From: Candidatus Woesearchaeota archaeon
GTDB lineage: Archaea > Nanobdellota > Nanobdellia > Pacearchaeales > GW2011-AR1
DNA length: 64,000 bases
Assembly: GCA_964358765.1 (NCBI GenBank)
Contig: CAYHPN010000002.1
Location: forward strand, 62,863-126,862
Reading direction: 5' to 3'
The notes below the pieces were generated by a model. The model worked only from the letters and a program-made list of their open reading frames with translations, was not told where the DNA came from and made no database searches. This document shows, one piece after another, positions 35,286 through 49,530 of the stretch. Positions within the stretch are counted from its first letter, which is position 1. Each line of letters opens with the position of its first letter. The position numbers and the translations under genes are program-made.

Positions 35286-35463
35286 TAAGGAAATAGTGAA
35301 ACTAATTTTATGATTTAGTATTAATTCCTATATTGTCGTAAAATCCTTTGGTTTTTAATCTGGTACGAAATTCTTTAATTAAAATTAAATAATTAAAAAA
35401 ATTTCTGAAAATAAGAGTATCTTAGTGTAATAAATACATATACTTGAAGATAATTATATTTAA

Positions 35464-35506
35464 ATAGTGTTTATCATACAATTAGTTAGTGTATTAAATA
35501 CACTAA
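35464..35506 (+). promoter_or_regulatory. tandem NrtR-type operators (sites A and B) over the TATA box and TSS of the pncB operon
   Basis: Site B (35486-35506), TTAGTGTATTAAATACACTAA, is a perfect 21-bp palindrome. Site A (35464-35484) is ATAGTGTTTATCATACAATTA, starting 22 bp upstream. An extra degenerate site is at 35422-35442. TATA-like TTTAAATA is at 35459-35466. Confidence 0.7.
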
Positions 35507-35519
35507 AGGAGACAAAAAA

Positions 35520-36878
35520 ATGCAAACAGAAAAAAAGGAAAGGGAACAAAGAACGATGCTTACTGATTTATATCAGTTAACAATGAATGCAGGGTATTTT
35601 GAAAATGAAAAGAATGATATGGCTACATTTGACTTGTTTATACGCGATCTTCCTAAAGATTGGGGTTTTTTCATAGCGAACGGGTTAGAAGATGCCGTAG
35701 ATTATGCAACAAACATTAAATTTGAGGAAGAAGACATTGAATTCTTAAGAGAACAGAATATTTTTAATGAAAATTACTTAGAATCTCTAATAGACTTTAG
35801 ATTTACGGGAGAGATATACGCTGTTAAAGAGGGAACACCAATTTCTGCAAACACTCCTATTCTAAGTGTTAGGGCACCAAGAATGGAAGCTCAATTGCTT
35901 GAAACTATTCTTCTTAATACCGTAAACTTTCAGACAATGATTGCTTCTAAAGCAAATAGAGTAGTACTAGCAGCAAAAGAAGCAAATGTTATAGATTTTG
36001 GTTTAAGGAGAGCACAAGGAAGAGACGCCGCACTAGAAGGAGCAAGAGCCGCATACATTGGAGGATGCATAGGAACAAGCGATGTTATGGCTGGGAAAAA
36101 ATATAGCATTCCAATATTTGGAACACAAGCACATAGTTTTGTAATGAGTTTTCAAAGTGAAATTGAATCTTTTAGAGCATATGTAAAAACTTTCCCTAAA
36201 AATACAACATTATTGATTGATACTTATGACACAATAAATGGTGCGAAAAATGCAGTAATAGTTGGAAAAGAACTTGAAAAAAGCGGGGGAAGACTTGGAG
36301 GCGTTAGACTTGATTCTGGAAATCTCGCAGAATTATCTATAGAAGCAAGAAAGATATTAGATGACGGCGGGCTGAATTATGTAAAAATATTTGCAAGCAA
36401 TGATCTGAATGAATATAAAATTTCTAAATTAAGAGAAAGAGATGCGAGAATTGATGGATATGGGGTTGGAACTGAATTAATAACTGCAAAACCAGTCGCT
36501 GCAATTCCAGGAGTTTACAAACTTGTAGAAGATGAGAACGGAGCTAAAATTAAATTAGCTGAAGGGAAGAAAAGTTATCCTGGAAGAAAACAAGTTTACA
36601 GAGTAGAACAAAATGGGCAGTATATTGAAGATATTCTTGCTTTAGAAGGAGAAAGAATTAATGGAATACCTCTATTAGAAAAAGTAGTTGAAAATGGAGA
36701 AAGAATAAGAGCAAGGAGAACTCTAAAGGAAATAAGAAAGTATTGCAAAGAAGAAGTTGCAAAGATGCCTCAATCAACTAAAGAAGTTTATTCTAAACAA
36801 TATGAAATAAAAGAATCTAGAGGCTTAACTAATCTCATTTCTGAATTGACTGTTAAATATGGAGGCGGAAAAAAATGA
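35520..36878 (+). CDS. pncB: nicotinate phosphoribosyltransferase
   Basis: LTDLYQLTMNAGYF, FGLRRAQG, GTQAHSF and VRLDSGN motifs; 452 aa. Confidence 0.9.
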   Translation: MQTEKKEREQRTMLTDLYQLTMNAGYFENEKNDMATFDLFIRDLPKDWGFFIANGLEDAVDYATNIKFEEEDIEFLREQNIFNENYLESLIDFRFTGEIYAVKEGTPISANTPILSVRAPRMEAQLLETILLNTVNFQTMIASKANRVVLAAKEANVIDFGLRRAQGRDAALEGARAAYIGGCIGTSDVMAGKKYSIPIFGTQAHSFVMSFQSEIESFRAYVKTFPKNTTLLIDTYDTINGAKNAVIVGKELEKSGGRLGGVRLDSGNLAELSIEARKILDDGGLNYVKIFASNDLNEYKISKLRERDARIDGYGVGTELITAKPVAAIPGVYKLVEDENGAKIKLAEGKKSYPGRKQVYRVEQNGQYIEDILALEGERINGIPLLEKVVENGERIRARRTLKEIRKYCKEEVAKMPQSTKEVYSKQYEIKESRGLTNLISELTVKYGGGKK

Positions 36879-37120
36879 AAGATGGAACAATATATGCCAT
36901 TAAAGGTAAAACAAGAGTATTGAAAGCTAAAGGATATGAGGCAAGAATGGATACTCTAGGTTTTGCAACTGGGGAAAAGGAAGACATCCTGGAATTTTAC
37001 CGAAATAATAGATATAACGAAATTGAACTAGAAGTTATAAAAGTTACAAACGTAAGAGGCAATTCAAGGATTGAAGATTTTCTAAAAAACCAAAAAGAAA
37101 AGGAGGCAAGGGTAGCATGA
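36875..37120 (+). CDS. hypothetical small protein in the NAD operon
   Basis: 81 aa with ATGA overlaps on both sides. Confidence 0.4.
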   Translation: MKDGTIYAIKGKTRVLKAKGYEARMDTLGFATGEKEDILEFYRNNRYNEIELEVIKVTNVRGNSRIEDFLKNQKEKEARVA

Positions 37121-37743
37121 GAACAATACTATGGAATGTTGATACCCAATATGACTTTATGAGAGATTATGGAAGACTCTATGTTAGAGGAGCAGAGGAA
37201 ATAGAAAACAAACTTGAAAGGTTTACTAAACTTGCTGAAAAATATAATATAATAGTTGTAAATACTGCAGATTGGCATAATGAGAAAACAGCAGAGATTT
37301 CAAAAAACCCTGACTTCGTAAATACTTTTCCAGAACACTGTATTGAAAATACTCAAGGAGCAGAATTTATTGAAGCAACTAATCCTAAAGATGCTTACAA
37401 AATATATTGGGATCAAGAAAGTTTTGATGAAAATGAAGTATTAAAAAATAGAAACATAATATTGTATAAAGACAAATTTGATGTTTTCAAAGGGACGAGA
37501 CATGCAGACGGAATTGTAAAACTATTAGCTCCAGAAAGAGCAATTGTTTATGGAGTTGCAACAAATGTATGTGTAAATGATGCAGTGCTAGGGCTTTTAG
37601 AAAGAAAGGTTAAGGTGTATGTTCCAGTTGATGCAATAAAGGAACTTCCAAACTTACCATTGCCTTATGATAAATGGATAAATAAAGGGGCAGTTCTTAT
37701 TACAACTAATGAAGCCTATGGAATGCTGGAGGAAATAAAATGA
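37117..37743 (+). CDS. pncA: nicotinamidase (isochorismatase family)
   Basis: WNVDTQYDFM and the catalytic-Cys context VYGVATNVCV. Confidence 0.8.
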   Translation: MRTILWNVDTQYDFMRDYGRLYVRGAEEIENKLERFTKLAEKYNIIVVNTADWHNEKTAEISKNPDFVNTFPEHCIENTQGAEFIEATNPKDAYKIYWDQESFDENEVLKNRNIILYKDKFDVFKGTRHADGIVKLLAPERAIVYGVATNVCVNDAVLGLLERKVKVYVPVDAIKELPNLPLPYDKWINKGAVLITTNEAYGMLEEIK

Positions 37744-38072
37744 AAGAAGAAGCAATAACCCTAACTCTGCTAGTAAATAAAACAAAAGAAGAACTTAATG
37801 ATTCACAAAGAAGAGTAAACTTAGCAATGGAAAATTTACGAAATTATCAATCAAAATGTCAACATAGGTTTAAAGAAAGCTATGATCCTATAATTCATCC
37901 GGCAGGGTATTCTCAAGGAGATGCTCCGGGAACTATGGGTGTAGACTGGCAAGGACCATGCAGTTGGCCTGAAACTAGAGAAGATAGATGGAAGAGAGAA
38001 TGTTTTGAATGCGGTTTAACTCAATATACGCAAAATGTAGAAAAGGAGGTCATGAAAAAACCGAAGTGGTAA
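37740..38072 (+). CDS. hypothetical protein with a Cys pair
   Basis: 110 aa with CQHRF ... CFECGL, translationally coupled to pncA. Confidence 0.35.
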   Translation: MKEEAITLTLLVNKTKEELNDSQRRVNLAMENLRNYQSKCQHRFKESYDPIIHPAGYSQGDAPGTMGVDWQGPCSWPETREDRWKRECFECGLTQYTQNVEKEVMKKPKW

Positions 38073-38105
38073 ACTTTATAAAAGAACTTTGTTGGAGAAT
38101 TTAAT

Positions 38106-39239
38106 ATGAAAATAACAGAAAATAAAGGAAGATTGAGTATGGAAGAAATAGAGACTTCTCTTATCTATGATCATGGATATATACCTGAGCATGTCCAAGA
38201 GATGATGCCAAAATTAGAAGAAATTGATAGATTGAGGAATGAAAAAAATGCTATTTTGCTTGCGCACTACTATCAAATTCCACCTATACAACTTATCGCG
38301 GATATCAAGGGAGATTCTTTAAAGCTTGCAGAATCAGCAAAAGAGATTAGAGATAAAAGGTTAGTAGTATGCTCAACGGTTGTCTTCATGGCTGAGATGG
38401 TAAAATTATTAAGTCCTGATAAAAAAGTAGTTGTTCCTGATTTAGAATCAGGCTGTTCTATTGCTTCTGGAATGAATGGTGAAAGTGTAAGAAAAATAAG
38501 AGAAAAGTTTCCCACCTCTGCAATTGTTTCTTATATTAATACCTATGCTGACACAAAAGCAGAAGTCGATGCTGTATGTACTTCTGCAAATGCCAAGAGT
38601 GTTTTAAGAAACATCATGGGAGATCCTGTTATTATGATTCCTGATTATTTCTTTTTTCAAAATATGGCTAAAGAATTGCTTAGAGAGGGAAATGATGGAA
38701 GAACTTATTTAGCATACCGAGGAAAGGAAGGAGGAGATTTAGTTTTAGAAAATGTTGTTAATGGAAAAGAAGAACACATCAGAGGAAACGGTTTCCAACT
38801 TCCTGTATTAGACAAAGGAACTTGTATTGTGCACGAACAATTTAACCCTACTGATATTGACTATTTGAGAAAGAAGGATGGAATTGAAATTGTTATGGCT
38901 CATCCTGAAGTCAGTCCAGGAGTGGCAGAAGTATCTGATTTTGTCGGCGGAACTGGAAAAATGATCGATTATGTTGAAAAAAGTTCAGCAAAGAAATTTC
39001 TTGTCATCACTGAATGCGATTTAACTGCTCCTTTACGAGAAGCATTTCCAAAAGATAAATATGGAAAAGAATTTTACACCCCTTGTATACTCTGCCCATA
39101 TATGAAAAAGAATAGTATTGATGTTCTCTTAAATTCCTTTAGATATGAAAGATATGAAATCCATTTAGATGAAAAAACAGCAGCGGGTGCTAAACGATCT
39201 TTAGACAGAATGTTTGAGCTGACCAGGGAGAGAAAATGA
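38106..39239 (+). CDS. nadA: quinolinate synthase
   Basis: LLAHYYQ, GDSLKLA, ESGCSIA, YINTYADTKAEVDAVCTSANA, GTCIVHEQF, AHPE and CILCPYMKKN motifs. Three Cys ligand contexts are present. Confidence 0.8.
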   Translation: MKITENKGRLSMEEIETSLIYDHGYIPEHVQEMMPKLEEIDRLRNEKNAILLAHYYQIPPIQLIADIKGDSLKLAESAKEIRDKRLVVCSTVVFMAEMVKLLSPDKKVVVPDLESGCSIASGMNGESVRKIREKFPTSAIVSYINTYADTKAEVDAVCTSANAKSVLRNIMGDPVIMIPDYFFFQNMAKELLREGNDGRTYLAYRGKEGGDLVLENVVNGKEEHIRGNGFQLPVLDKGTCIVHEQFNPTDIDYLRKKDGIEIVMAHPEVSPGVAEVSDFVGGTGKMIDYVEKSSAKKFLVITECDLTAPLREAFPKDKYGKEFYTPCILCPYMKKNSIDVLLNSFRYERYEIHLDEKTAAGAKRSLDRMFELTRERK

Positions 39240-40138
39240 CAATAAAAAATACAAAAATGTTCAGCTCCTCTGAAGGAAATGTTTGGAAATATGTTTTTGA
39301 AGTTCCAGAAGGTGTAACTGAATCAGTCTTATATAAGTATCGATCATTTGAAGATAGAACTGTTCTGTGCTGTTCTGTTCAATCTGGATGCCCAGTAAAA
39401 TGTACATTTTGCGGTGCTGGAAATTCATTTCTTAGAAATTTGGATGCAAACGAAATAAAAGAACAAGTTGACTTTGTATTTGCTGATAAGAAAATTGATA
39501 GTAGAAAAGTAAATAAATTACAGATAATGTTCATGTCCATGGGTGAACCTTTTTTAAATTATGATAATGTCGAACTTGCTATAAGAGATCTCAATTCGGC
39601 ATATAAAAATGCACAACTTTTAGTTTCAACTATCGCCCCGGATAGAAAAGGAGATCTAGAAAGGTTTATTGAATTATCAACAGAAATTAATAAAATTGGA
39701 TTACAATTTTCCATTCATAAACCAACTGATGAAGAAAGAAATAAGTTAATCCCATATAAAAATAAATTAACTTTATCTCAAATTTCAGAATATGGTGTAA
39801 AATGGTTTAATGCAACTGGAAGAAATCCATTTTGCAATTATTGTGTAGATGGTAAGAATGACACAAATGGGGATTTTGAAAAATTAAGAGATTTATTTCC
39901 ACAAGAAGTATTTAATTTTACTTTTTCAGTTGTTTGTTCAAAAGACGAAACAATGAAAGATGCGGGTTTTCGAAATCTTGACAAGATTAATTCGTTTAGA
40001 CAGAAATTTATTAATATTGGATATAATACTCGAACATTTGATCCTCATGGTCAAGATGATATCGGCGGAGGTTGCGGACAGTTATGGTATGTTCAAAATT
40101 ACTTGCTAGGAAAAAATACAATAGGGGAGAGAAAATGA
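39236..40138 (+). CDS. short RlmN/Cfr-like radical SAM enzyme
   Basis: CSVQSGCPVKCTFCGAG (CxxxCxxC), FMSMGEPFLNYDNV, VSTIAP, LQFSIHKP and the C-terminal GGGCGQLWY resemble the RlmN/Cfr core. At 300 aa it lacks the usual N-terminal domain. Confidence 0.6.
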   Translation: MTIKNTKMFSSSEGNVWKYVFEVPEGVTESVLYKYRSFEDRTVLCCSVQSGCPVKCTFCGAGNSFLRNLDANEIKEQVDFVFADKKIDSRKVNKLQIMFMSMGEPFLNYDNVELAIRDLNSAYKNAQLLVSTIAPDRKGDLERFIELSTEINKIGLQFSIHKPTDEERNKLIPYKNKLTLSQISEYGVKWFNATGRNPFCNYCVDGKNDTNGDFEKLRDLFPQEVFNFTFSVVCSKDETMKDAGFRNLDKINSFRQKFINIGYNTRTFDPHGQDDIGGGCGQLWYVQNYLLGKNTIGERK

Positions 40139-41157
40139 GTCTAGAAAAATATCAGGCGACTTTTGTTGGTTGTCTGCAAGGAGATAGATTAGGCATGTCT
40201 GTAGAAGGTTTCAAAAGAGAACAAATAAAAAAGTATGTAGGAAGAATTACTAAGCCTATTGATCCTGTTATTGTTAGAGATGGAAAAGGAGAAGAAATAA
40301 CTGAAGATGAATTTGGAAAGCTAAAATATTGGACTAGAAATCTAAAAAAAGAAGACCATACTGATGATACTATACTGACTTATGCAGTTGGTCGCTCCTT
40401 AACAGAAAAAGGATATGATCTGGAGAGAGTTGCATCTGAACATGTTAAAGTTATCAATGATGATTCTGCATTTGGAAAAACGACTAGAGATGCGATTGAT
40501 AATTTAAAAAAAGGGATTTCTCATTTAGAAAGCGGAGTAATTGGAGGCCCTGGAAATGCCCCTGCGATGAAAATGTCACCTGTGGGATTATATATGGATG
40601 CTACAGGAACTTATAAAGAGGGATTAAAATTTGCTGAGAGTGTTAGCAAAATTACTCATTTGGATCCACGATCTGTAGTGAGCGGAGTGTTACAAGCTCA
40701 TGCAATATATTCATCTTTAGTTTTATATAGCCTGGACAGAAAAACATTTACTGAATCTTTAGTTGATGTTTGTAAAGATTGGGAAAAATCACTAAGTGAG
40801 AAATTTACTTGGTATAAAATGGGAAATCTTTTAACAAGATTACAATGGATAGACAATAACAGAGACGTTTCTAGCGAAGAAGCATTTTCACATTTGGGTA
40901 GTTCGAGTGCAATATATCAATCTTATCCTTTTGCTCTATGGATGTTTCAAAAATACTGGAATGATCCTATTGAAGGATTAATTGAAACAGTTAATTATGG
41001 AGGAGATTGCGATACAACAGGAGCAATCTATGGAAGTTTATGTGGAGCACGAAACGGAATTATATTTCCAACAGAGTGGTCAGAAGGAGCAAAAGGGATG
41101 GATGAAGCAATGGAACTAGGCAAGAAATTATTTTCATTAAGGAGGAAATTTCCATGA
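40135..41157 (+). CDS. ADP-ribosylglycohydrolase family protein
   Basis: GDRLGMSVEG, HTDDT and NYGGDCDTTGAIYGSLCGARNG motifs. The start is taken at the ATGA overlap (40135); the track start at 40072 lies inside the upstream gene. Confidence 0.75.
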   Translation: MSLEKYQATFVGCLQGDRLGMSVEGFKREQIKKYVGRITKPIDPVIVRDGKGEEITEDEFGKLKYWTRNLKKEDHTDDTILTYAVGRSLTEKGYDLERVASEHVKVINDDSAFGKTTRDAIDNLKKGISHLESGVIGGPGNAPAMKMSPVGLYMDATGTYKEGLKFAESVSKITHLDPRSVVSGVLQAHAIYSSLVLYSLDRKTFTESLVDVCKDWEKSLSEKFTWYKMGNLLTRLQWIDNNRDVSSEEAFSHLGSSSAIYQSYPFALWMFQKYWNDPIEGLIETVNYGGDCDTTGAIYGSLCGARNGIIFPTEWSEGAKGMDEAMELGKKLFSLRRKFP

Positions 41158-41693
41158 ATCAAGCAATAGTAAAATTAAGGCCTTTAAGCATTGAAGATGT
41201 TGACAATGTAATGACCTGGGTAAATGATAATGAAGTAATAAAGAACATTGCTAATTTTGATCACGTTTTTAGCAGAGAAGAAGAAAGAAAATTTCTGGAA
41301 AAATTGACAAAAAGTGAAAATGATCGCGTGTATTCTGTTGAGAATGAAAAGGGAGAATATATTGGGCAAGTGGGTGTAAATCAAATTTACTGGCCTGCAA
41401 GAGTAGGAAGACTGGCTATGACTATCGGAAATAAAGAATACCAAGGGAAAGGATATGGTCAAGCGGCGCTGAGAGAACTCTTACGAATCTCTTTTGAAGA
41501 GTTAAAAATGCACAAACTTTGGGGAGTTGTGTTTAAAACCAATGAAAGAATGAGACATATTCTTCATAAAAATGGGTTTGAACTTGAAGGAACATTACGG
41601 GAAGAATATATTTTGAGAGGAGAATATCATGATGTAGTGAGAATGTCTATTTTAGAAAAAGAGTATTTTAAATTGAAGGAGAGAAAGAAATGA
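41154..41693 (+). CDS. GNAT-family N-acetyltransferase (RimJ/RimL-like)
   Basis: LRPLSIEDVDNVMTWVND ... QGKGYGQAALRELL is an acetyl-CoA binding motif. Confidence 0.7.
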   Translation: MNQAIVKLRPLSIEDVDNVMTWVNDNEVIKNIANFDHVFSREEERKFLEKLTKSENDRVYSVENEKGEYIGQVGVNQIYWPARVGRLAMTIGNKEYQGKGYGQAALRELLRISFEELKMHKLWGVVFKTNERMRHILHKNGFELEGTLREEYILRGEYHDVVRMSILEKEYFKLKERKK

Positions 41694-43699
41694 AAATAGC
41701 ATTAGCACAAATGGAAGTCGTTGCTGGTAGGCCTAAAAAAACCCTGGAAAGAATGCTTCATATCATTTCTGAAGCAAAAAATAAAGGAGTTGATTTGATC
41801 GCTTTCCCTGAAATGTGTGTAGGAGGGTATTTGCTTGGAGATTTATGGACGAATGAAGGATATTGCAGAGCTTTAATGAAATTCAATGAAAAAATTATGC
41901 AAGCAAGCAAAGGGATAGCTATTGCTTATGGCAATATTTATGTTGATGATACTATTAATGAGAGAGTAGGAGATGATGGATTCCATCCGAATAAAGATGG
42001 AAGAGTGAGAAAATACAATGCCATTTATGTTTATCAGAATGGAAAACCAGCAAAAAGAGTGCAAGAAACTAAGTTTTTACCTGAAGGAGTACAGCCAAAG
42101 ACGTTGCTTCCTACTTATCGGTTTTTTGATGATCAGAGATATTTCTTTTCTACTGAAGATGTAGCAAAAGATTTTTCAGTAAGCCTTGAGAGTTTATTAT
42201 CTCCATTTATTATCACAGTGAGAGGAAAAGAACATACAATAGGCTTTGAACTGTGTGAGGATCTTTGGTGTGAGGATTATAGGAAAGACAGGAGAGCATT
42301 AAATCCTACAAAGATGCTTATAAACAATGGCGCTGAAAAAATAATCAATATCTCTGCCTCTCCCTGGACCTATGGAAAGAATGCTGCAAGAGACCGAAGA
42401 GTACAATTCTTAAAGAAAGATATTGGAAAGACCTTTACTCCTTTTTATTATGTGAATTGTGTGGGTACTCAGAATAATGGAAAAAATATTATTACCTTTG
42501 ATGGTGGTTCAACGGTTTATAATGAAGAAGGATTGCCTTTAATTTTAGGAAAATCCAATTATGAAGAAGAATTAATAATAGTTGAGGAAAAAGATTTGCA
42601 GAAGAGACCTATTGAAAGAGTTGAACAAGAAAGAGTTGAACAAAAATATCATGCACTCTTGCGTGGAATTAGACATGTGAAAGATATGAGTAGTATGTTG
42701 GAGCAGCCACGCTATATTATTGGATTATCGGGAGGCGTGGATAGCGCCATAGTTGCTGCTTTACTTACAAAGGCAGTTGGAGCCGATAATGTGATGGCAA
42801 TTAATATGCCAACGCGATTTAATTCAGATAAAACCAAAGACACTGCAAGGAAAATTGCAGAGAATCTTGGCATCGGATATGAAGTTGTCTCTATAGAAGA
42901 ACTTGATAGATTCAACCAAGAATTGCTTGAGAGACATGATCTGGATGGGAGTGGGAGAAAACTTGATGCTCGACAAAAAGGAAATGTAGCTGCAAAAATA
43001 CGAGGAACACCTGTTCTTTCAAATTTGGCTGCAAAATATCATGCTTTGTTCACCAATAATGGAAACAAACTGGAAACTGCTCTTGGTTATGCTACTTTAT
43101 ATGGAGATGTTAATGGAGCGTTCGCACCTATTGCCGACTTAACAAAACCTGAAATTTTTGAACTTGTAGAATTCTTTAATACAAAAGTCTTTAGAAGAGA
43201 AGTAATTCCTGCAGTACTTATTCCTGATGAACTCTTCAGATATCAAAAAGACCAGATTGCTCCTACGGCTGAACTTGAAAAAGATCAGATTGATCCTATG
43301 AAATTTGGATATCATGATGCATTACTCATGGAATTTACTGACTTTAAGAAAAAATCCCCAGAAGATATTATGCAATTCTATCAAGAAGGAAAATTGCATG
43401 AAATTATCGGGAGAAATCTTGGAAAGAATGCAGACTATGGATACCGACTTATGGAGAGATGGGGAGTTAACGATCCTAAAGTGTTTGTTGAAGACTTAGC
43501 ATGGTTTTGGAATGGAATCCAAGGGGCTGTGTTTAAGAGAATACAGACCTGCCCTATTATTGTAACGAGCAAGTCGGCTTATGGATTTGATATACGGGAA
43601 AGCATTCTGCCGTTTGAGACATCGTTAGTATATGATGAAATTAAAGAAGATATCCTGAAGATGAAGAAATATACTGGAGGAAAAAATGAGCGAACATAA
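41690..43699 (+). CDS. nadE: glutamine-dependent NAD+ synthetase
   Basis: N-terminal CN-hydrolase domain (FPEM, FELCEDLW) and C-terminal PP-loop GLSGGVDSA; 669 aa. Confidence 0.85.
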   Translation: MKIALAQMEVVAGRPKKTLERMLHIISEAKNKGVDLIAFPEMCVGGYLLGDLWTNEGYCRALMKFNEKIMQASKGIAIAYGNIYVDDTINERVGDDGFHPNKDGRVRKYNAIYVYQNGKPAKRVQETKFLPEGVQPKTLLPTYRFFDDQRYFFSTEDVAKDFSVSLESLLSPFIITVRGKEHTIGFELCEDLWCEDYRKDRRALNPTKMLINNGAEKIINISASPWTYGKNAARDRRVQFLKKDIGKTFTPFYYVNCVGTQNNGKNIITFDGGSTVYNEEGLPLILGKSNYEEELIIVEEKDLQKRPIERVEQERVEQKYHALLRGIRHVKDMSSMLEQPRYIIGLSGGVDSAIVAALLTKAVGADNVMAINMPTRFNSDKTKDTARKIAENLGIGYEVVSIEELDRFNQELLERHDLDGSGRKLDARQKGNVAAKIRGTPVLSNLAAKYHALFTNNGNKLETALGYATLYGDVNGAFAPIADLTKPEIFELVEFFNTKVFRREVIPAVLIPDELFRYQKDQIAPTAELEKDQIDPMKFGYHDALLMEFTDFKKKSPEDIMQFYQEGKLHEIIGRNLGKNADYGYRLMERWGVNDPKVFVEDLAWFWNGIQGAVFKRIQTCPIIVTSKSAYGFDIRESILPFETSLVYDEIKEDILKMKKYTGGKNERT

Positions 43700-44132
43700 A
43701 AATCCCGGTTGTACAGCAGACTCTATCATTCTCTATGAAAAAAATCTTGATTTTCTAAAGACTAAGATCCCTCTCGTTAAAAGAAAGAATGAACCTTATA
43801 AAGGATTTTGGGCATTACCTGGAGGATTCTTGAATTATGGAGAAGAAACTATAGAACAATGTTGTGTTAGGGAAGATTGGGAAGAAATTGGACTAATTAT
43901 AAAATTAGAAGACCTCGAATTATTTGGAGTTTATTCTGATCCATTAAGAGATCCAAGAGGGCATGTTACTTCACATGTATATGAGATTACAACTTTTAGT
44001 GGAACTCTAAAAGCTGGAGATGATGCCGCAAAAGTTAGATTGTTTGAACTTGGAAAGCTGCCCCCATTAGCATTTGATCATGAGAAAATTACTGCAGATT
44101 ATATAAAAAAATATGGGGTCAATAATGAGTGA
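43686..44132 (+). CDS. Nudix hydrolase
   Basis: Nudix box LPGGFLNYGEETIEQCCVREDWEEIGL. The C-terminal LAFDHEKI resembles NadM-Nudix/NrtR-type Nudix domains. Confidence 0.75.
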   Translation: MSEHKNPGCTADSIILYEKNLDFLKTKIPLVKRKNEPYKGFWALPGGFLNYGEETIEQCCVREDWEEIGLIIKLEDLELFGVYSDPLRDPRGHVTSHVYEITTFSGTLKAGDDAAKVRLFELGKLPPLAFDHEKITADYIKKYGVNNE

Positions 44133-45081
44133 GAAAAAATTCTGCTTATTAGCAGATCCTAGCAGGTCATCTTTTGAGCAGGCGAAGAAAATCTTTGCAG
44201 AGATTAGTAAAGAAAGTGATGCCTTTGATCTCATTCCTATAGAGATAAAGAGATTTAGAGATGGTGAACTCAAACCTAAGATTGTTGAAAATATTCGAAG
44301 AAAAGAATGTTTCTTTATTCATGATTCTCATTTGCCTCCTGCAGAATGGTTCTTAGAACTTTGCCTTATTAATCAGGCTCTTAAGAATTCTTCTGCGCAA
44401 GAAATTAATGTTATTTTACCGTATTTGAAATTTAGCAGACAGGATAGAAAAGACGAACCTCGAGTTTCTCTAAGTGCAAGAGTTATTGCAGATGCTATCC
44501 AACTCTATGCAGACAGGGTTGTGACATTAGACGTGCATAATCCTGCGACAGAAGGATTTTATGGCATTCCTTTTGATAACTTACATTCGTTTCCTATTGT
44601 TATAAATTATCTTAATACTCATTATTCAACCATATTAAAAGATATTACGATAATGAGCACTGACGCAGGAGGAGCAACCAGAGCAAAGAACTTTGCAAAA
44701 AAAATAGGAAAAAGTGATCTTGTTATAGGATATAAAGCAAGAAACAAGGAAGGAGATGTGGAAGAATTGAAAATTTTAGGAGATGTACAAGGAAAAAATA
44801 TTCTAATTATTGATGACATGATTGATTCAGGAGATACTTTGCTTTCTGCCTGCACAACTGCCAGAAAAGAGGGAGCAAAAAAAGTTTATGCTTATTGCAC
44901 ACACGGTATTTTCTCTAAGGGAATAGAAAATTTCAAGAATAACTTTGATAAACTCTTTATTAGCGATAGTATAATGCAGAAACCTGCAGAAAATATAGAA
45001 GTAATTCCCTTAGAAAAGCTCTTTGCTTCTGCTATTTTAAAAATCTCTAAAGGCGAGAGCATAAGCATGCTTTTTAATTAA
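44113..45081 (+). CDS. prs: ribose-phosphate pyrophosphokinase
   Basis: LDVHNP..EGFYGIPFDNL and the PRPP-binding loop IIDDMIDSGDTL. Confidence 0.85.
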   Translation: MGSIMSEKKFCLLADPSRSSFEQAKKIFAEISKESDAFDLIPIEIKRFRDGELKPKIVENIRRKECFFIHDSHLPPAEWFLELCLINQALKNSSAQEINVILPYLKFSRQDRKDEPRVSLSARVIADAIQLYADRVVTLDVHNPATEGFYGIPFDNLHSFPIVINYLNTHYSTILKDITIMSTDAGGATRAKNFAKKIGKSDLVIGYKARNKEGDVEELKILGDVQGKNILIIDDMIDSGDTLLSACTTARKEGAKKVYAYCTHGIFSKGIENFKNNFDKLFISDSIMQKPAENIEVIPLEKLFASAILKISKGESISMLFN

Positions 45082-45265: not shown

Positions 45266-45321
45266 TTCTTTTTACTATCTTAGTCTACATAATACATATT
45301 ATAAATTATAATAATCTTTAT

Positions 45322-45364
45322 ATAGTGTAGTATATACAATAAGTTATGGTATTTAATACAATAA
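45322..45364 (+). promoter_or_regulatory. tandem NrtR-type operators over the TATA box and start codon of the NMNAT operon
   Basis: Site A (45322-45342) is ATAGTGTAGTATATACAATAA. Site B (45344-45364) is TTATGGTATTTAATACAATAA, 17 of 21 matches to the perfect palindrome. Spacing is 22 bp. TATA TTTATATA is at 45317-45324. The ATG at 45346 lies inside site B. Confidence 0.6.
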
Positions 45365-45993
45365 CTAAGGAAAAGGAAAAAACACTAGGAAGAGTTGGAA
45401 CAATAGGAAGATTCAAACCATTGCACAATGGCGCTTTTACGTTATTGAAATCTTTATGTGAGAGAGCAGATGAAGTAATCATAGGAATTGGAAGTTCAAA
45501 TAAATACAATTTAAGAAACCCTTTTACGCAAGAAGAAACCAAAGAGATGATTGATCTAGCACTCCAAGATAATTTTAACAATTATTCTTTTGTATTTATC
45601 CCTGATTTTGGACACATTCCTCAATATAAAGATGGGAAGTATTGGAGAACTGTTGTAGTTGAGAAATTTGGAAAACTAGATTATTTCGTATCTGCAAACG
45701 ATTATGTAAAAGATTTGCTCAAAGATCATTACAATATCTTAGAATCATATTTTGTTGTACCAAGAGAAGATAGATTCAGATTACGCGGGGCACAAGTACG
45801 CTACGCCATGGCCACCGGAGAGAACCTGAAAAATTTAGTGCCAAAAAGAGTTGCAGAATATTTGGAAAATAATGATCTAGTTAAAAGATTCAACAAAGAG
45901 TTTGGACTGGAAACTCTTGCCTGCGTTATTGATTCTGATTATACTGAAGATGAAAGTGCAGCAGAAGAAAAAATGCATGCACGGGAGAAATAA
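45346..45993 (+). CDS. NadM-like nicotinamide-nucleotide adenylyltransferase (variant active-site motif)
   Basis: GRFKPLHNGAFTLL corresponds to the cytidylyltransferase GRFxPxHxGH motif, but the last His is replaced by Ala. The C-terminal tail is acidic. Confidence 0.6.
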   Translation: MVFNTITKEKEKTLGRVGTIGRFKPLHNGAFTLLKSLCERADEVIIGIGSSNKYNLRNPFTQEETKEMIDLALQDNFNNYSFVFIPDFGHIPQYKDGKYWRTVVVEKFGKLDYFVSANDYVKDLLKDHYNILESYFVVPREDRFRLRGAQVRYAMATGENLKNLVPKRVAEYLENNDLVKRFNKEFGLETLACVIDSDYTEDESAAEEKMHAREK

Positions 45994-45994
45994 A

Positions 45995-46792
45995 ATGGCC
46001 AAGATTGGGAATTACAGGGTTAAAAAACAAATAGGCGAGGGAGGATTTGGAAGAGTCTTTCAAGGAGAGCATACCTTACTAGGGACTGAAGTTTGCCTTA
46101 AGCAAAATAGAAATGCTTCAGTAGAAGATGTTGAATTACTTAAGCACGAAGCAAAACTAATGTGGAAACTAGATGAATATCATTCGATACCTAGCATTAA
46201 GGATTTTTATGAATTGAATAAAGAAACAGGAGTACTAGTTATGAGTTATATTGAGGGAAGTACTCTAGAAGATTTAATAAAAGAAAAAGGGCCTCTGCAC
46301 GCAGAAGATGCTTCCTGGATTATGGAGAGATTACTAGGGGCGCTCTATTATGCACATTGCAAAGGAGTTATTCATACAGATGTAAAACCAGAAAATGTTT
46401 TTATTGAACCGCAGAATAGAGATATAAAATTGATTGATTGGGGGCTTGCCAGCTTTAAGCCTACAAGCAAGACAAAGCCTATTGGATATAGTCCAAAATA
46501 TGCAGCTCCTGAACTCATCAATGGAAGCCCTCCTCTGCCCGAGACTGATCTCTACGGAGCAGGAATTGTCTACTTAAGAGCCTTAGGTGGAGATATAGAA
46601 AAGAAAAGTTTCCGCAAAGACACTCCTACAGAGATTGTTTCTTTTTGTAACCGACTTTTACTATATGAAGCAAAAGAAAGACCTAATTGGGACAAAGAAA
46701 ATCTTATTGAAACCTTATCAAGCGTTCGTGAAAATGTCTTTGGAAGAAGACATAGCGGAACACTAGTAAAAGTGAAAGGAGGTGATGTATAA
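45995..46792 (+). CDS. Hanks-type Ser/Thr protein kinase
   Basis: IGEGGFGRVFQG, catalytic loop HTDVKPENVF, DWG (DFG-like) and APE. The start ATG at 45995 comes 2 nt after the NMNAT stop; the track start at 45902 overlaps the NMNAT gene. Confidence 0.75.
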   Translation: MAKIGNYRVKKQIGEGGFGRVFQGEHTLLGTEVCLKQNRNASVEDVELLKHEAKLMWKLDEYHSIPSIKDFYELNKETGVLVMSYIEGSTLEDLIKEKGPLHAEDASWIMERLLGALYYAHCKGVIHTDVKPENVFIEPQNRDIKLIDWGLASFKPTSKTKPIGYSPKYAAPELINGSPPLPETDLYGAGIVYLRALGGDIEKKSFRKDTPTEIVSFCNRLLLYEAKERPNWDKENLIETLSSVRENVFGRRHSGTLVKVKGGDV

Positions 46793-46793
46793 G

Positions 46794-47807
46794 ATGTACT
46801 CATGGGGAGGAGATACTGGAGGCTGGAGAGGAAGCAAGAAATATGACTATGGATCTGCAAGAGCCCACTATGACAAAATGGCAGTTGATATGCCTAGCGT
46901 AAGAACATATGACAGAAGAAAAACGCCTGACATGGATCTTACCAACGCAAAAGGAAAAAATATTCAGAGCGATAGTGAAGACCCCGTTATTGTAGCAGTT
47001 GATGTTACCGGTTCAATGTCTGCGTGGCCAGGAGAAATATTTGATCGATTGCCATTGTTCTACCAAACACTTGCAAAACACAGGCCTGGAATGGAAATAG
47101 CGTTTGCAGCCATTGGAGATGCAACAATAGATGGTTATCCATTACAGATTACGGACTTTGCAAAAGAACCTAAAGATCTTGAGAAAAAACTTAAAGCACT
47201 CGGATGTGAAGGCGGAGGCGGAGGTCATATCACTGAATCCTACGAATTGTTTGGATACTATATGATGCACCATTGCAAGACACCAAAAGCAAAATCACCC
47301 TTTTTGCTGATTTATGGAGATGAAGCATTTTATGATAATGTTGAACCAAAACAAGTTAAACATTATATTGGAGATGACTTAGAATCTAGCGTTAATTCGA
47401 CAGAATTGTGGAAAGGACTTATGCAAAAATATGAACTCTATCATCTGCACAAACTCTATGGATCAGGTGGAGAAAAATCTACTGACAGCCAAATTATAGA
47501 TATCTGGAGAAAAGCAATTGGAAGACAAAGAGTGATTGAACTTCCTTTCGAAATTACGATGGAAGATGGAAGCAAGATGCCCGGTTATCAAAGAGCGGTC
47601 GACATTGGAATGGGACTCATTGCAAAACGTTGGGGAGAGTATCGAGACTTTGGAAAAAGCCTTGATGCACGCCATGACGATCCAAGTGTAAAGGCGAGTG
47701 TGCATCACTCATTACGACATATTGATGCTGACCCAGCACCTGTATCCCGAATTACTGCAAAATCAAAAACTGCAAAATCCAAGGCGACAAAAAGTCTCCT
47801 AGATTAA
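46794..47807 (+). CDS. von Willebrand factor A (vWA) domain protein
   Basis: MIDAS-like VAVDVTGSMS and later IGDA / LIYGDEA strands. GGAGG lies about 10 nt upstream of the ATG at 46794. Alternative starts are at 46782 and 46785. Confidence 0.65.
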   Translation: MYSWGGDTGGWRGSKKYDYGSARAHYDKMAVDMPSVRTYDRRKTPDMDLTNAKGKNIQSDSEDPVIVAVDVTGSMSAWPGEIFDRLPLFYQTLAKHRPGMEIAFAAIGDATIDGYPLQITDFAKEPKDLEKKLKALGCEGGGGGHITESYELFGYYMMHHCKTPKAKSPFLLIYGDEAFYDNVEPKQVKHYIGDDLESSVNSTELWKGLMQKYELYHLHKLYGSGGEKSTDSQIIDIWRKAIGRQRVIELPFEITMEDGSKMPGYQRAVDIGMGLIAKRWGEYRDFGKSLDARHDDPSVKASVHHSLRHIDADPAPVSRITAKSKTAKSKATKSLLD

Positions 47808-47857
47808 AGGAAATTTATTTTTTACTTTTTTTTATTATTAACAAGACAAAAAGAAAA

Positions 47858-48769
47858 ATGGAAAGAAAAGCAATAGTAACACTGGGGCCGTATGCTCCTT
47901 TTATGGAAGATGTAGTAAAACACCCTATCGTATCCGGGATTAGACTCAATACAGTTATGCCACTAAAGGAAACAAAAGAGGATGCTCTTAAGAGACTTGA
48001 GAGTATTGTAAAAGAAGAAGGAAAAGAACTATGGATTGATCTTAAATGCAGACAGCTAAGAGTAAAAGAATTTTGCACTCCTCCTTACACAGAAATTACT
48101 TTGAGCCATGAAATAGAAGTTTATACTCCAACAAAAGCGTATTTCTCTGACAGGAGTGAGAGTGCAACCATTTTAGAAGTGAATGGAAATAAACTTATTA
48201 TGCAAGACGGACCTAGGAGAGTTGTTGGACCCGGAGAGTCTGTAACCATTCCTCATCCAACACTACAGATCAAAGGAGATTACCTTACAGATTCTGATAA
48301 AACATATATTGAAGCAGCAAACAAAGTAGGGATTCATAAGTATATGCTTTCTTTTATTGAGAAAAAACAAGATAGTAAGGGAGTGAGAAAGTATGATGCA
48401 AAAGCAGAGAGTATTGAAAAAATAGAATCTGAAAAAGGATTAAGATATCTTTCAAAGGAATGGGAAGGGAACACAAGACTTATGGCAGCATGCGGAGATC
48501 TCTATATGGAACTGAAATGGCCACATGAAATTGCTGAAAAGATCGAGTTTATTTTAAGCAAAGATAAAAATGCTATTGCGGCTTCAAGAATTTTAGATTC
48601 GCTTGCTAGTAGACCAGAACCAAGTTGCGAAGATATAGGACACTTAGATAATTTGCTGAGAATGGGATATAAGACTGTGATGTTTGGAGATGAAATTTGT
48701 CTTGAAAAAGAAAAAATTCTTTCTGCACTTAATATTTATACTCTTATGGCGAGGAGATATGAAAAATGA
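47858..48769 (+). CDS. truncated pyruvate-kinase-like TIM-barrel protein
   Basis: KAIVTLGPYA, GIRLNTVMP, WIDLKCRQLRV, ACGDLYMEL and ASRILDSLASRPEPSCEDIGHLDNLLRMGYKTVMFGDEIC parallel the PK motifs (TIGP, NFSHG, DTKGPEIR, RGDLGVE, ATQMLESM..P.PTRAE..DVANAV.DG.D.VMLSGETA). It is only 303 aa and has no C-terminal domain. Confidence 0.5.
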   Translation: MERKAIVTLGPYAPFMEDVVKHPIVSGIRLNTVMPLKETKEDALKRLESIVKEEGKELWIDLKCRQLRVKEFCTPPYTEITLSHEIEVYTPTKAYFSDRSESATILEVNGNKLIMQDGPRRVVGPGESVTIPHPTLQIKGDYLTDSDKTYIEAANKVGIHKYMLSFIEKKQDSKGVRKYDAKAESIEKIESEKGLRYLSKEWEGNTRLMAACGDLYMELKWPHEIAEKIEFILSKDKNAIAASRILDSLASRPEPSCEDIGHLDNLLRMGYKTVMFGDEICLEKEKILSALNIYTLMARRYEK

Positions 48770-48815
48770 GCCCTTTAATTTTGGCAAATAAGTATTATCT
48801 TAAAGGAGAAATTTT

Positions 48816-49361
48816 ATGATAGAGACAATTAATCAAATAGATAAAGAAGATAAAGTTGTGTATAGTGGACATTTAACACTAGTTAAAAGATCGCACGAAG
48901 GGAGAGATTATGATGTTGTTATATCTAAAAATGCAGCGGTTATGCTCTATATTGATGAGAATGATACCGTTTATTTAACAAAACAATATAGGCCTGCAAT
49001 GGGAGAAGAAATCTTAGCATTGCCTGCTGAGACTTTAGATAAAAATGGACTGAGCCCACTAGAAACAATGATTGAAGGTTTAGAAGAAGAATGTGGAATA
49101 AGAATAAACGAAGATCAGGTAAAATCAGTTGGAAGAGTTATTTCAACTGATGGGCATGATACTGAAAGAGTTTATCTATTTTTAGCGCATGGACCAGGAA
49201 AAAAAGTTGGACAAAAATTAGAAGAAAACGAAAAAATACAAGTAGTGACTATGCCATTTGATGAATTATATAAAAGAGTTATTAATAATGAGATAGAAGG
49301 ATCCAAGACTGCATATTTAGTGATGCGTGAGAAATTAAGAAGACTAGGTGAATTAAAATAA
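48816..49361 (+). CDS. Nudix hydrolase, ADP-ribose pyrophosphatase-like
   Basis: LPAETLDKNGLSPLETMIEGLEEECGI resembles the NudF-type Nudix box; 181 aa. Confidence 0.7.
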   Translation: MIETINQIDKEDKVVYSGHLTLVKRSHEGRDYDVVISKNAAVMLYIDENDTVYLTKQYRPAMGEEILALPAETLDKNGLSPLETMIEGLEEECGIRINEDQVKSVGRVISTDGHDTERVYLFLAHGPGKKVGQKLEENEKIQVVTMPFDELYKRVINNEIEGSKTAYLVMREKLRRLGELK

Positions 49362-49474
49362 AATAATTAATAATCTAATTTTACCGAAGATATTTATTAA
49401 AAAAGAGATAAAACAATTTATTTTATTTAAATTTTACTAAAATCACAAATAAAGCGCAGCACCACAAAGTTTAT

Positions 49475-49517
49475 ATAGTGTATTGTATACAATTAGTTAG
49501 TGTATTAAGTACACTAA
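49475..49517 (+). promoter_or_regulatory. tandem NrtR-type operators over the TATA box and TSS of the pnuC-nadR-nadK operon
   Basis: Site A (49475-49495) is ATAGTGTATTGTATACAATTA. Site B (49497-49517) is TTAGTGTATTAAGTACACTAA, one mismatch from the perfect palindrome. BRE/TATA AAAGTTTATATA ends at 49477. Confidence 0.7.
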
Positions 49518-49530
49518 AGGAAAAAACAAA

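What the first reader, a model, noticed from the sequence alone, without database searches (positions are those of the whole stretch)
35422..35506. Candidate NrtR operator: tandem 21-bp palindromes at fixed 22-bp phasing and identical register over three promoters
TTAGTGTATTAAATACACTAA (35486-35506) is a perfect 21-bp palindrome. Near-identical sites occur at 49497-49517 (1 mismatch) and 45344-45364 (4 mismatches). In all three places a second related site (ATAGTGTnnnnnATACAAT(T/A)A) starts exactly 22 bp upstream, and it begins 5 nt into a TATA-like box (TTTAAATA or TTTATATA). The three promoters head the operons 35520-45081 (pncB ... prs), 45346-49361 (NMNAT ... Nudix) and 49531-52334 (pnuC, nadR, nadK). 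An NrtR-type Nudix-wHTH regulator is encoded at 57023-57691. NrtR is known in bacteria as an ADP-ribose-responsive repressor of NAD genes. Here it appears wired to archaeal-style TATA promoters, with one site occluding the TATA box and one the TSS or start codon.
Basis: partly seen in the sequence, partly recalled or inferred. Interest (0 to 1): 0.75.

Follow-up and report, generated by a model that had tools for sequence, protein, structure and literature searches.

The report
NrtR operators on archaeal NAD promoters
A DPANN archaeon carries the bacterial-type NAD regulator NrtR, and its 21-bp binding sites sit in a fixed position over the TATA box and transcription start of three NAD-metabolism operons; the layout recurs in related archaea and has not been described in Archaea in the papers I could search.

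Summary
The perfect palindrome TTAGTGTATTAAATACACTAA (35486-35506) and six related sites are the seven best hits in 64 kb, including with matrices built only from other genomes. All seven lie in three promoters that head NAD operons. Site 2 always starts 5 nt into a TTTAWATA box, and site 3 starts 22 bp later.

The window's own promoter rule fixes the geometry. Eight of 48 gene starts have TTTAWATA exactly 29 nt before the ATG. Site 2 therefore covers -24 to -4 and site 3 covers -2 to +19.

ORF 57023-57691 is a full-length NrtR, with Nudix and NrtR winged-helix domains. Its fold matches BtAraR and SoNrtR, and its DNA-contact arginine is conserved. The same WTAGTGT-N7-ACACTAW arms precede nrtR homologues on GC-rich, bacterial-like contigs.

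Five other DPANN genomes carry the same gap-free array: a distal site at -66, the TATA box, site 2, then site 3 (or the leaderless ATG where site 3 would lie), with 42 and 22 bp spacing.

The most likely mechanism is repression by occlusion of RNA polymerase recruitment. Relief would come from an NAD-derived ligand, probably ADP-ribose; this step is untested. I rate it a new variant of a known kind, of moderate interest.

The parts
35422..35442 (.). Distal NrtR-type site (site 1) of the pncB promoter, TTAGTGTAATAAATACATATA. Predicted position -66 to -46. The left arm is canonical and the right arm is degenerate.
   Evidence: The same element lies at the same offset (42 bp before site 2) in L009, L011, L094, L097 and L099.
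35459..35466 (+). TATA box TTTAAATA of the pncB operon promoter, 61 nt before the ATG. Predicted TSS about 35488.
35464..35484 (.). Site 2, ATAGTGTTTATCATACAATTA. It overlaps the last 3 bp of the TATA box. Predicted position -24 to -4.
35486..35506 (.). Site 3, the perfect 21-bp palindrome TTAGTGTATTAAATACACTAA. Predicted position -2 to +19, over the TSS.
35520..45081 (+). Operon 1: pncB, 81-aa ORF, pncA-like isochorismatase, 110-aa ORF, nadA, RlmN/Cfr-like radical SAM, ADP-ribosylglycohydrolase, GNAT, glutamine-dependent nadE, Nudix, prs.
45280..45300 (.). Weak distal site TTAGTCTACATAATACATATT, 42 bp before site 2 of the NMNAT promoter.
45317..45324 (+). TATA box TTTATATA, exactly 29 nt before ATG 45346. 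This is the leaderless geometry typical of this genome.
45322..45342 (.). Site 2, ATAGTGTAGTATATACAATAA.
45344..45364 (.). Site 3, TTATGGTATTTAATACAATAA. It is degenerate because it contains the start codon and the first codons of the NMNAT gene.
   Evidence: The same TTATGG arrangement occurs in L011 and L097.
45346..49361 (+). Operon 2: archaeal-type NMNAT, Ser/Thr protein kinase, 341-aa unknown, pyruvate-kinase-barrel-like protein, weak AdpP/YffH-like Nudix.
49470..49477 (+). TATA box TTTATATA of the pnuC operon promoter, 61 nt before the ATG. Predicted TSS about 49499.
49475..49495 (.). Site 2, ATAGTGTATTGTATACAATTA.
49497..49517 (.). Site 3, TTAGTGTATTAAGTACACTAA, one mismatch from a perfect palindrome.
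49531..52334 (+). Operon 3: 107-aa unknown, pnuC, nadR-type NMNAT/ribosylnicotinamide kinase (no HTH), NAD kinase.
57023..57691 (+). nrtR: Nudix domain with an intact Nudix box, plus an NrtR-type winged helix. It has its own leaderless promoter (TTTAAATA at -29) with no NrtR site.

Best explanation
The 21-bp palindromes are operators of the NrtR-family repressor encoded at 57023-57691. They control three NAD-metabolism operons of a DPANN archaeon.

Each NrtR dimer would bind one WTAGTGT-N7-ACA(C/A)TWA site through its winged-helix domains. At each promoter two abutting sites, 22 bp apart centre to centre (about two helical turns), cover -24 to +19 relative to the predicted start. They overlap the 3' edge of the TATA box, the melted region and the initiation site.

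Bound NrtR would therefore block the recruitment of RNA polymerase by TBP and TFB, or block open-complex formation. At the pncB promoter, and weakly at the NMNAT promoter, a third site lies 42 bp upstream (about four turns, on the same face of the helix). It probably adds cooperative binding.

An NAD-derived ligand bound to the Nudix domain would release the protein and de-repress NAD salvage, synthesis and ADP-ribose recycling. ADP-ribose is the most likely ligand, by analogy with bacterial NrtR.

Shown here: the sites, their statistics, their register, their conservation, the family of the regulator, and the association of regulator with motif. Inferred: binding, repression, the start sites and the ligand.
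For: 1. Regulator family.
- Pfam gives NUDIX at 4.6e-23 and NrtR_WHD (PF21906) at 2.7e-19.
- NCBIfam gives 'ADPR responsive transcriptional repressor' at 3.2e-53.
- Full-length PDB matches are BtAraR at 1.3e-42 and SoNrtR at 3.4e-34.
- The predicted fold matches 5bs6, 3gz6 and 3gz5 with TM 0.72-0.76.
- The DKRNF arginine aligns with the DNA-intercalating Arg180 of BtAraR, and H201-R202 aligns with its wing residues K204-R205. R178 and R202 are invariant in 25 homologues.

2. Motif fit.
- The published family signature is a 21-bp palindrome with a GT-N7-AC core (PMC2330246).
- The BtAraR crystal DNA is AAAGTGT-N7-ACAC.

3. Independent link between regulator and motif.
- On 64 GC-rich contigs that carry nrtR homologues, the commonest 7-N7-7 inverted-repeat arms in the 200 bp upstream are ATAGTGT (15 contigs), TTAGTGT (11) and TTCGTGT (7).
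- On those contigs the sites also precede pncB and nadA, and prs on one low-GC contig.

4. Specificity. The seven sites rank 1-7 in 64 kb with matrices built only from other genomes, and they occur only at the three NAD promoters.

5. Archaeal geometry.
- TTTAWATA lies exactly at -29 from the ATG at 8 of 48 starts, P about 2e-12.
- The NMNAT promoter follows this rule.
- The pncB and pnuC promoters have the box at -61 plus a Shine-Dalgarno sequence.

6. Conservation.
- Eight promoters from six genomes align without gaps.
- The shared order is distal site, ATAATC, TTTAWATA, site 2, then site 3.
- Single sites between the TATA box and a leaderless ATG precede nrtR or MTS-nrtR in L013-L015, L093, L095, L096, L098 and L099.
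Against: - No binding, footprint, TSS or expression data exist. All start sites are predicted from the TATA offset.
- The score against the NCBIfam NrtR equivalog model (180.7 bits) is far below its cut-off of 400.
- The closest solved homologue, BtAraR, senses arabinose rather than ADP-ribose, and C. glutamicum NdnR responds to NAD, so the ligand and the sign of the response are open.
- The Nudix box is intact, unlike the characterised pure regulators, so the protein could also or mainly be an enzyme.
- In this window nrtR's own promoter has no site.
- Only 64 kb of the genome (plus about 3 kb more) could be scanned, so regulon-wide specificity is untested.
- The distal element is asymmetric, and its spacer is conserved more than a plain NrtR site would need. 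Simple NrtR binding does not explain that.
Confidence: 0.82

Rival explanations
1. The operators and regulator are the same, but the logic is different. NrtR would bind DNA only with NAD (or NaAD or NADP) as co-repressor, as reported for C. glutamicum NdnR, rather than being released by ADP-ribose. Alternatively its active Nudix domain hydrolyses ADP-ribose, so that the signal is transient.
For: - PMC4666351 states that NdnR responds to NAD.
- PMC2330246 reports that NaAD, NADH, NADP and related compounds also weaken SoNrtR binding.
- The Nudix box GX5EX7REUXEEXGU is intact here and its catalytic glutamates are invariant in 25 homologues.
- In cyanobacterial NrtR homologues an intact box correlates with ADP-ribose pyrophosphatase activity.
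Against: - ADP-ribose is the effector shown for the two NAD-regulating NrtRs tested in vitro, and for M. smegmatis NrtR.
- The regulon itself contains ADP-ribose-producing and ADP-ribose-consuming enzymes (ADP-ribosylglycohydrolase, two Nudix proteins, prs). That fits ADP-ribose as the signal.
Confidence: 0.25
2. The distal element (35422-35442 and its orthologues) is not a simple third NrtR operator. It would be the target of another factor, for example the TrmB-family regulator encoded next door at 34181-34924, or an upstream activating or nucleating element. NrtR would act only at sites 2 and 3.
For: - The element CTTAGTGTAAATAATACATATACT is nearly invariant across six genomes, including its spacer and its non-palindromic right arm. 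That is more constraint than sites 2 and 3 show.
- A TrmB-family gene lies directly upstream of the pncB promoter.
- TrmB genes are also near nrtR in L096 and L099.
Against: - Its left arm is a perfect NrtR half-site.
- The 42-bp offset is a whole number of helical turns from site 2.
- Bacteroides AraR operons also use paired sites separated by 3 bp or by 42 nt.
- The pnuC promoter works without the element.
Confidence: 0.15
3. The palindromes act at the RNA level. Site 3 would be transcribed and would form a 5'-terminal hairpin that controls stability or translation.
For: RNA folds of 35486-35525 and 49497-49536 give hairpins of -7.6 and -7.9 kcal/mol, with z-scores of -4.5 and -3.7.
Against: - The hairpin is lost where site 3 overlaps a leaderless start: 45344 gives -0.8 and L099 gives 0 kcal/mol.
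- Site 2 and the distal site lie upstream of the predicted start.
- The hairpin does not include the Shine-Dalgarno sequence.
- Any DNA palindrome gives such a fold.
Confidence: 0.03
4. The sites are repeated promoter cassettes or chance AT-rich similarity with no operator function, or they are bound by an unrelated regulator.
For: The genome is 30% G+C, so AT-rich near-repeats are common. Individual weak sites scoring 17-19 are close to the extreme of the null distribution at 18.5.
Against: - 0 of 100 shuffles reach the observed count.
- The strong sites far exceed the null maximum.
- The arms are G/C-containing and palindromic.
- The same arms flank nrtR homologues on GC-rich contigs, found without using any matrix.
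- Flanking sequence is not conserved between genomes, whereas the sites are.
Confidence: 0.03

Closest known systems
Bacterial NrtR (Shewanella oneidensis SO1979, Synechocystis Slr1690; Rodionov et al. 2008, PMC2330246)
   Same: - Nudix plus NrtR-type winged-helix architecture. Identity to SoNrtR is 36% over about 200 residues, with TM 0.73.
- 21-bp palindromic operator with a GT-N7-AC core.
- Targets include pncB, pncA, nadA, nadE, nadM, prs, pnuC-nadR and an ADP-ribosylglycohydrolase.
- Tandem sites are known at prs-nadV.
- The position of the sites implies repression.
   Different: - The host is an archaeon with TBP/TFB promoters.
- The sites are locked to the TATA box (+5) and the TSS at a fixed 22 bp. 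Bacterial-like contigs in my sample show variable offsets (38-106 bp before nrtR) and tandem spacings of 23-26 bp.
- A conserved third site lies at -66.
- The Nudix box is intact.
- nrtR is not always autoregulated.
Bacteroides thetaiotaomicron AraR (PDB 5bs6, 5dd4, 5ddg, 5deq; PMC4666351)
   Same: - It is the best solved homologue: 39% identity, E 1.3e-42, TM 0.75.
- Its operator AAAGTGT-N7-ACAC shares the AGTGT-N7-ACAC core.
- The intercalating arginine and the wing basic residue are conserved.
- Paired sites separated by 3 bp or 42 nt occur there too.
   Different: AraR senses L-arabinose, controls arabinose utilisation, and has a degenerate Nudix box. Here the targets are NAD genes and the Nudix box is intact.
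Corynebacterium glutamicum NdnR and Mycobacterium smegmatis NrtR
   Same: NrtR-family repressors of NAD genes.
   Different: Their operators differ (Mycobacterium: GTTTTCGA-N7-TCGAAAAC). NdnR responds to NAD. MsNrtR is catalytically dead and is modulated by acetylation.
Archaeal repressors that act by promoter occlusion (for example MDR1, LrpA, Phr, TrmB/TrmBL1; from my own knowledge of the field, not checked here)
   Same: A bacterial-type HTH dimer binds a palindrome that overlaps or lies just downstream of the TATA box. It blocks TBP/TFB binding or RNA polymerase recruitment.
   Different: The protein family is different. None of these is Nudix-linked or dedicated to NAD metabolism.
NadQ (COG4111; Agrobacterium, PDB 7q91-7q94)
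   Same: An NAD-metabolism repressor with a Nudix-like domain and a related winged helix. It gives weaker hits (E 3.8e-11 over residues 125-212; TM about 0.63).
   Different: Only the C-terminal winged helix aligns at sequence level. The N-terminal domain of NadQ is divergent and binds ATP or NAD.

Membership tests
[quoted passage not shown] | N-terminal Nudix (PF00293) domain | tested here: met
   Pfam NUDIX at 4.6e-23 over residues 13-134.
[quoted passage not shown] | C-terminal NrtR-type winged-helix DNA-binding domain | tested here: met
   PF21906 NrtR_WHD at 2.7e-19 over residues 150-208, and PF19368 AraR_C at 9.9e-9.
[quoted passage not shown] | Full-length sequence and fold similarity to solved NrtR proteins | tested here: met
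   5bs6 at 1.3e-42, 3gz5 at 3.4e-34 and 2fml at 4e-31. Foldseek TM 0.72-0.76 to 5bs6, 5dd4, 3gz6 and 3gz5; the model has pLDDT 74.
[quoted passage not shown] | 21-bp palindromic operator with a conserved GT-N7-AC core | tested here: met
   TTAGTGT-N7-ACACTAA at 35486 and 49497, with GT-N7-AC present in the six sites at 35422, 35464, 35486, 45322, 49475 and 49497. The degenerate site at 45344 has GGT-N7-ACA. Definition taken from PMC2330246.
[quoted passage not shown] | Operators upstream of NAD-metabolism genes, and genomic linkage of nrtR with those genes | tested here: met
   The sites head the pncB-to-prs, NMNAT and pnuC-nadR-nadK operons. nrtR lies 7.5 kb downstream in the window. In L009, L011, L098 and L099 it is the last gene of the NAD operon.
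[quoted passage not shown] | The motif co-occurs with the regulator across genomes | tested here: met
   De novo inverted-repeat count upstream of nrtR homologues on 64 GC-rich contigs. Conserved arrays in five other DPANN genomes.
[quoted passage not shown] | DNA binding relieved by ADP-ribose (or a related NAD metabolite) | not testable with these tools
   This needs EMSA or footprinting with purified protein.
NCBIfam NF050029 (ADPR-responsive repressor, equivalog model) | Score at or above the curated equivalog cut-off of 400 bits | tested here: not met
   180.7 bits, E 3.2e-53. The protein is a family member but is not an equivalog of the curated set.
Archaeal TBP/TFB-type promoter | TATA box at a fixed distance of about 25-30 nt upstream of the start, with leaderless mRNAs common | tested here: met
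   Of 16 perfect TTTAWATA boxes in the 100 nt upstream of 48 gene starts, 8 start exactly at -29. These include 45346 and nrtR itself. P about 2e-12. The TSS itself is not mapped.
NadQ (COG4111) regulators | NadQ-type N-terminal domain together with the winged helix | tested here: not met
   Only residues 125-212 align to 7q91, at E 3.8e-11. The N-terminus is a canonical Nudix domain.

The most novel reading that the evidence does not exclude
Across DPANN archaea (Pacearchaeota, Woesearchaeota, Nanoarchaeota) a bacterial-type NrtR has become a catalytically competent enzyme-repressor. Up to three dimers would assemble on one face of the DNA, at -66, -24 and -2, to shut TBP/TFB promoters. The near-invariant, asymmetric distal element would act as a dedicated nucleation or co-factor site. 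This would be the first metabolite-sensing regulon defined for these uncultured symbionts. It would show how a bacterial operator grammar was re-cut to fit the archaeal distance between TATA box and start site.
Probability: 0.3. Interest if true: 0.65.

Novelty: new variant of a known kind. Interest (0 to 1): 0.5.

Why it matters
NrtR is treated in the literature as a bacterial family. Searches of the held library for NrtR with archaea or with DPANN taxa found no archaeal regulon, and a 2023 archaeal Nudix paper still describes NrtR as bacterial.

In this case the regulator, its operator and a full NAD salvage and ADP-ribose recycling regulon are conserved in many DPANN genomes. The top 120 homologue clusters share 58-98% identity with the window protein.

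DPANN archaea are uncultured, have reduced genomes and are presumed to depend on hosts. Almost nothing is known about their gene regulation. This locus gives a concrete system that can be tested in vitro, because the protein, three promoters and a candidate ligand are all defined.

The base-pair-exact register also gives a clean example of how a bacterial-type repressor is fitted to the archaeal basal machinery. That register is site 2 at TATA+5, site 3 22 bp later, and the distal site 42 bp upstream of site 2.

The mechanism class, repression by promoter occlusion by an HTH dimer, is not new.

Tried and rejected
The organism could therefore not be named from a GTDB record.
- Rfam and tRNA scans of the window found nothing.
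- Supplementary site tables of Rodionov 2008 are not held, and Huang 2009 (the SoNrtR structure paper) is not held. I could not compare with the Shewanella operator base by base, nor place the motif in a named RegPrecise group.
- Extending the contig through its end genes gave only about 3 kb beyond the window, and that stretch holds no sites.
- The RNA-hairpin reading of site 3 was tested and rejected, because the fold is not conserved.
- The spacer of site 3 (ATTAAATA at -27 of pncB) was considered as an alternative TATA box. I rejected it because it is not conserved (AAAAAAA in L009, ATTAAGT at pnuC), whereas the -61 box is perfect in all eight aligned promoters.
- An NrtR-like match inside the AdpP-like ORF (48862-48882) scores 5-11. 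It lies within coding sequence after a good Shine-Dalgarno and ATG, so I treat it as probable chance.
- Matches at 30900 and 8935 are intragenic and within the null range.

Full report
**1. Observation**

- 35486-35506 is the perfect 21-bp palindrome TTAGTGTATTAAATACACTAA.
- 49497-49517 differs from it at one base.
- 45344-45364 differs at four bases on the + strand and three on the - strand.
- Partner sites of the form ATAGTGT-N7-ACAATWA start at 35464, 45322 and 49475. Each is exactly 22 bp upstream of the main site and exactly 5 nt into a perfect TTTAWATA box (35459, 45317, 49470).
- A seventh site, 35422-35442, lies 42 bp upstream of 35464. A weak counterpart at 45280 has the same 42-bp offset.

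The pattern is far beyond chance.
- There are 5 matches at up to 3 mismatches, against 0.02 expected, and 0 of 100 shuffles reach that number.
- To avoid circularity I built matrices from other genomes only.
  - With 16 sites from other DPANN loci, the seven window sites rank 1-7 (17.8-25.1; next hit 11.7).
  - With 21 sites next to nrtR homologues on GC-rich contigs, the two strong palindromes score 27.5 and 26.3, against a null maximum of 15.8.
- No other promoter in the window has such a site.

**2. Genes**

The three promoters head tight + strand operons.
- 35520-45081: pncB (NCBIfam 545 bits), pncA-like isochorismatase, nadA, an RlmN/Cfr-like radical SAM protein, ADP-ribosylglycohydrolase, GNAT, glutamine-dependent nadE, Nudix and prs.
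- 45346-49361: archaeal-type NMNAT, a Ser/Thr kinase, an unknown protein, a pyruvate-kinase-barrel-like protein and a weak AdpP-like Nudix.
- 49531-52334: an unknown 107-aa ORF, pnuC, nadR-type NMNAT/RNK and NAD kinase.

**3. The regulator**

ORF 57023-57691 has a Nudix domain and an NrtR winged helix.
- It matches BtAraR (39% identity, E 1.3e-42) and SoNrtR (36% identity, E 3.4e-34) over its full length.
- Its predicted fold matches these structures with TM 0.72-0.76, including the SoNrtR-DNA complex.
- The arginine of its DKRNF motif aligns with BtAraR Arg180, which intercalates into the operator. H201-R202 aligns with the wing residues Lys204-Arg205. R178 and R202 are invariant in 25 homologues.
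- Unlike BtAraR and SoNrtR, its Nudix box GFVKIEENLEEAATRELREETGV fits GX5EX7REUXEEXGU exactly. The catalytic glutamates are invariant.

**4. Host**

The organism is a DPANN archaeon.
- The top 120 NrtR homologue clusters share 58-98% identity with the window protein (all but one 68% or more). Where named, they are Pacearchaeota, Nanoarchaeota or Nanoarchaeia.
- Named relatives of the window's pyrophosphatase are mostly Woesearchaeota, Pacearchaeota, Nanoarchaeota and other archaea.
- Contigs carrying close nrtR homologues hold archaeal markers:
  - the archaeal ThrRS editing domain;
  - ribosomal protein L35Ae;
  - a proteasome subunit;
  - an aCPSF1-type KH/beta-CASP protein;
  - the archaeal CCA-adding enzyme.
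- The window comes from 0.2-um-filtered groundwater assemblies (Hain_H43).
- Most directly, the window shows archaeal promoter grammar. Of 16 perfect TTTAWATA boxes in the 100 nt upstream of 48 gene starts, eight begin exactly 29 nt before the ATG, P about 2e-12. That is the signature of leaderless transcripts.

**5. Geometry**

I take TATA start + 29 as the start site.
- The NMNAT operon is leaderless, with its ATG at 45346.
- The pncB and pnuC operons have the box at -61, a 32-nt leader and a Shine-Dalgarno sequence.
- In all three promoters site 2 covers -24 to -4 and shares ATA with the TATA box. Site 3 covers -2 to +19.
- The distal site covers -66 to -46.
- Centre-to-centre distances of 22 and 42 bp are about two and four helical turns, so all sites face the same side of the helix.

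**6. Link between motif and regulator, and conservation**

A metagenome scan with an NrtR alignment returned 80 loci.
- On 64 GC-rich, bacterial-like contigs, a matrix-free count of 7-N7-7 inverted repeats in the 200 bp upstream of nrtR gave ATAGTGT (15), TTAGTGT (11) and TTCGTGT (7) as the commonest arms.
- Sites lie 38-106 bp before nrtR on those contigs. They also precede pncB and nadA there, and prs on one low-GC contig.
- Tandem spacings in the sample are 23-26 bp, not 22 (most of these pairs are on GC-rich contigs).
- In DPANN loci the window's architecture recurs exactly.
  - Sites at 767/809/831 in L009, 5591/5633/5655 in L094 and 4433/4475/4497 in L099 show the 42 + 22 spacing.
  - In L011 (3743/3785) and L097 (9081/9123) a leaderless ATG follows in place of site 3.
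- Eight promoters from six genomes align without a single gap.
- Single sites that fill the interval between the TATA box and a leaderless ATG precede nrtR or MTS-nrtR in eight further loci. The window's own nrtR and MTS promoters lack a site.

**7. Mechanism**

The best explanation is repression by occlusion. NrtR dimers on sites 2 and 3 cover the region that RNA polymerase and TFB must occupy. The distal site would add cooperativity.

An NAD-derived ligand would relieve repression. ADP-ribose is favoured for two reasons. It is the effector of the NAD-controlling bacterial NrtRs. The regulon also encodes enzymes that make and recycle ADP-ribose.

NAD as co-repressor (as in NdnR), or a bifunctional enzyme-repressor, cannot be excluded.

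An RNA-hairpin role for site 3 is rejected, because the fold is not conserved.

The systematic ACAAT right arm of site 2 may reflect a need for A/T around -10. That is inference only.

**8. Comparison and novelty**

The protein passes every testable defining feature of the NrtR family. It falls below the narrow NCBIfam equivalog cut-off. Paired sites are known for SoNrtR and BtAraR, the latter with 3-bp or 42-nt separation.

These features differ from what is described:
- the archaeal host;
- the base-pair-exact locking of the sites to the TATA box and start site;
- the conserved three-site array, with a nearly invariant and asymmetric distal element;
- the intact Nudix box.

Full-text searches found no description of NrtR in Archaea or in DPANN.

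I rate this a new variant of a known kind, with interest 0.5. It is a well-supported and testable regulon in organisms whose regulation is essentially unknown, but the mechanism class is familiar.

Noticed in passing
window 39236-40138; L009 2858-3733; L011 5604-6470; L099 6446-7318: An RlmN/Cfr-like radical SAM protein (about 290-300 aa) is conserved inside the NAD operons of several DPANN genomes. In three of them it follows pncA directly; in the window it follows nadA. It has no known role in NAD metabolism.
   Followed up: partly
window 45902-48769; L098 15265-18211; L093 238-1146: A gene triple recurs in L098: a Ser/Thr protein kinase, an unknown protein of about 330 aa, and a pyruvate-kinase-barrel-like protein of about 300 aa. 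In the window it sits in the NrtR-controlled NMNAT operon. In L093 the PK-like gene lies at the upstream end of a run of genes that includes pnuC and nadR.
   Followed up: no
window 35422-35442, 45280-45300; L009 767; L011 3743; L094 5591; L097 9081; L099 4433: The distal element CTTAGTGTAAATAATACATATACT is nearly identical across six genomes, including its spacer and its non-palindromic right arm. That is more conservation than an ordinary operator needs and is unexplained.
   Followed up: partly
window-wide, e.g. 4589(-), 6125(-), 17949, 45346, 52989, 57023, 61254(-), 61554: A perfect TTTAWATA box starts exactly 29 nt before the ATG at 8 of 48 gene starts. This implies widespread leaderless transcription in this DPANN genome. 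Other genes, such as pncB, pnuC and the gene at 57757, carry clear Shine-Dalgarno sequences.
   Followed up: yes
window 34181-34924: A TrmB-family regulator gene lies directly upstream of the pncB promoter. TrmB genes also lie within 10 kb of nrtR in L096 and L099. This may be coincidence or a second regulator of the locus.
   Followed up: no
window 41154-41693; L098 952-1470: A GNAT acetyltransferase sits inside the NAD operon. M. smegmatis NrtR is reported to be controlled by lysine acetylation (PMC6800001).
   Followed up: no
window 38106-39239: nadA is present, but no nadB or nadC was recognised in the window. Related loci L093 and L095 carry a nadB-like flavoprotein. The de novo pathway may be incomplete or may use unrecognised enzymes.
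   Followed up: no
window 48862-48882: A weak NrtR-like match, ATAGTGGACATTTAACACTAG, lies 47 nt inside the AdpP-like Nudix ORF. It scores 10.8 with the matrix built from GC-rich contigs, which is within the null range.
   Followed up: partly
window 3009-4211 (-): An ORF with a reverse-transcriptase (RVT_1) domain sits between 2-oxoacid dehydrogenase genes; no group II intron RNA model matched in the Rfam scan. A PIN/MazE pair is called nearby on the matching contig L100.
   Followed up: no
L009 13516-15114: A bacterial-type DnaG primase (DnaG_N, Toprim and DnaB-binding domains) lies on a contig that otherwise carries archaeal markers.
   Followed up: no
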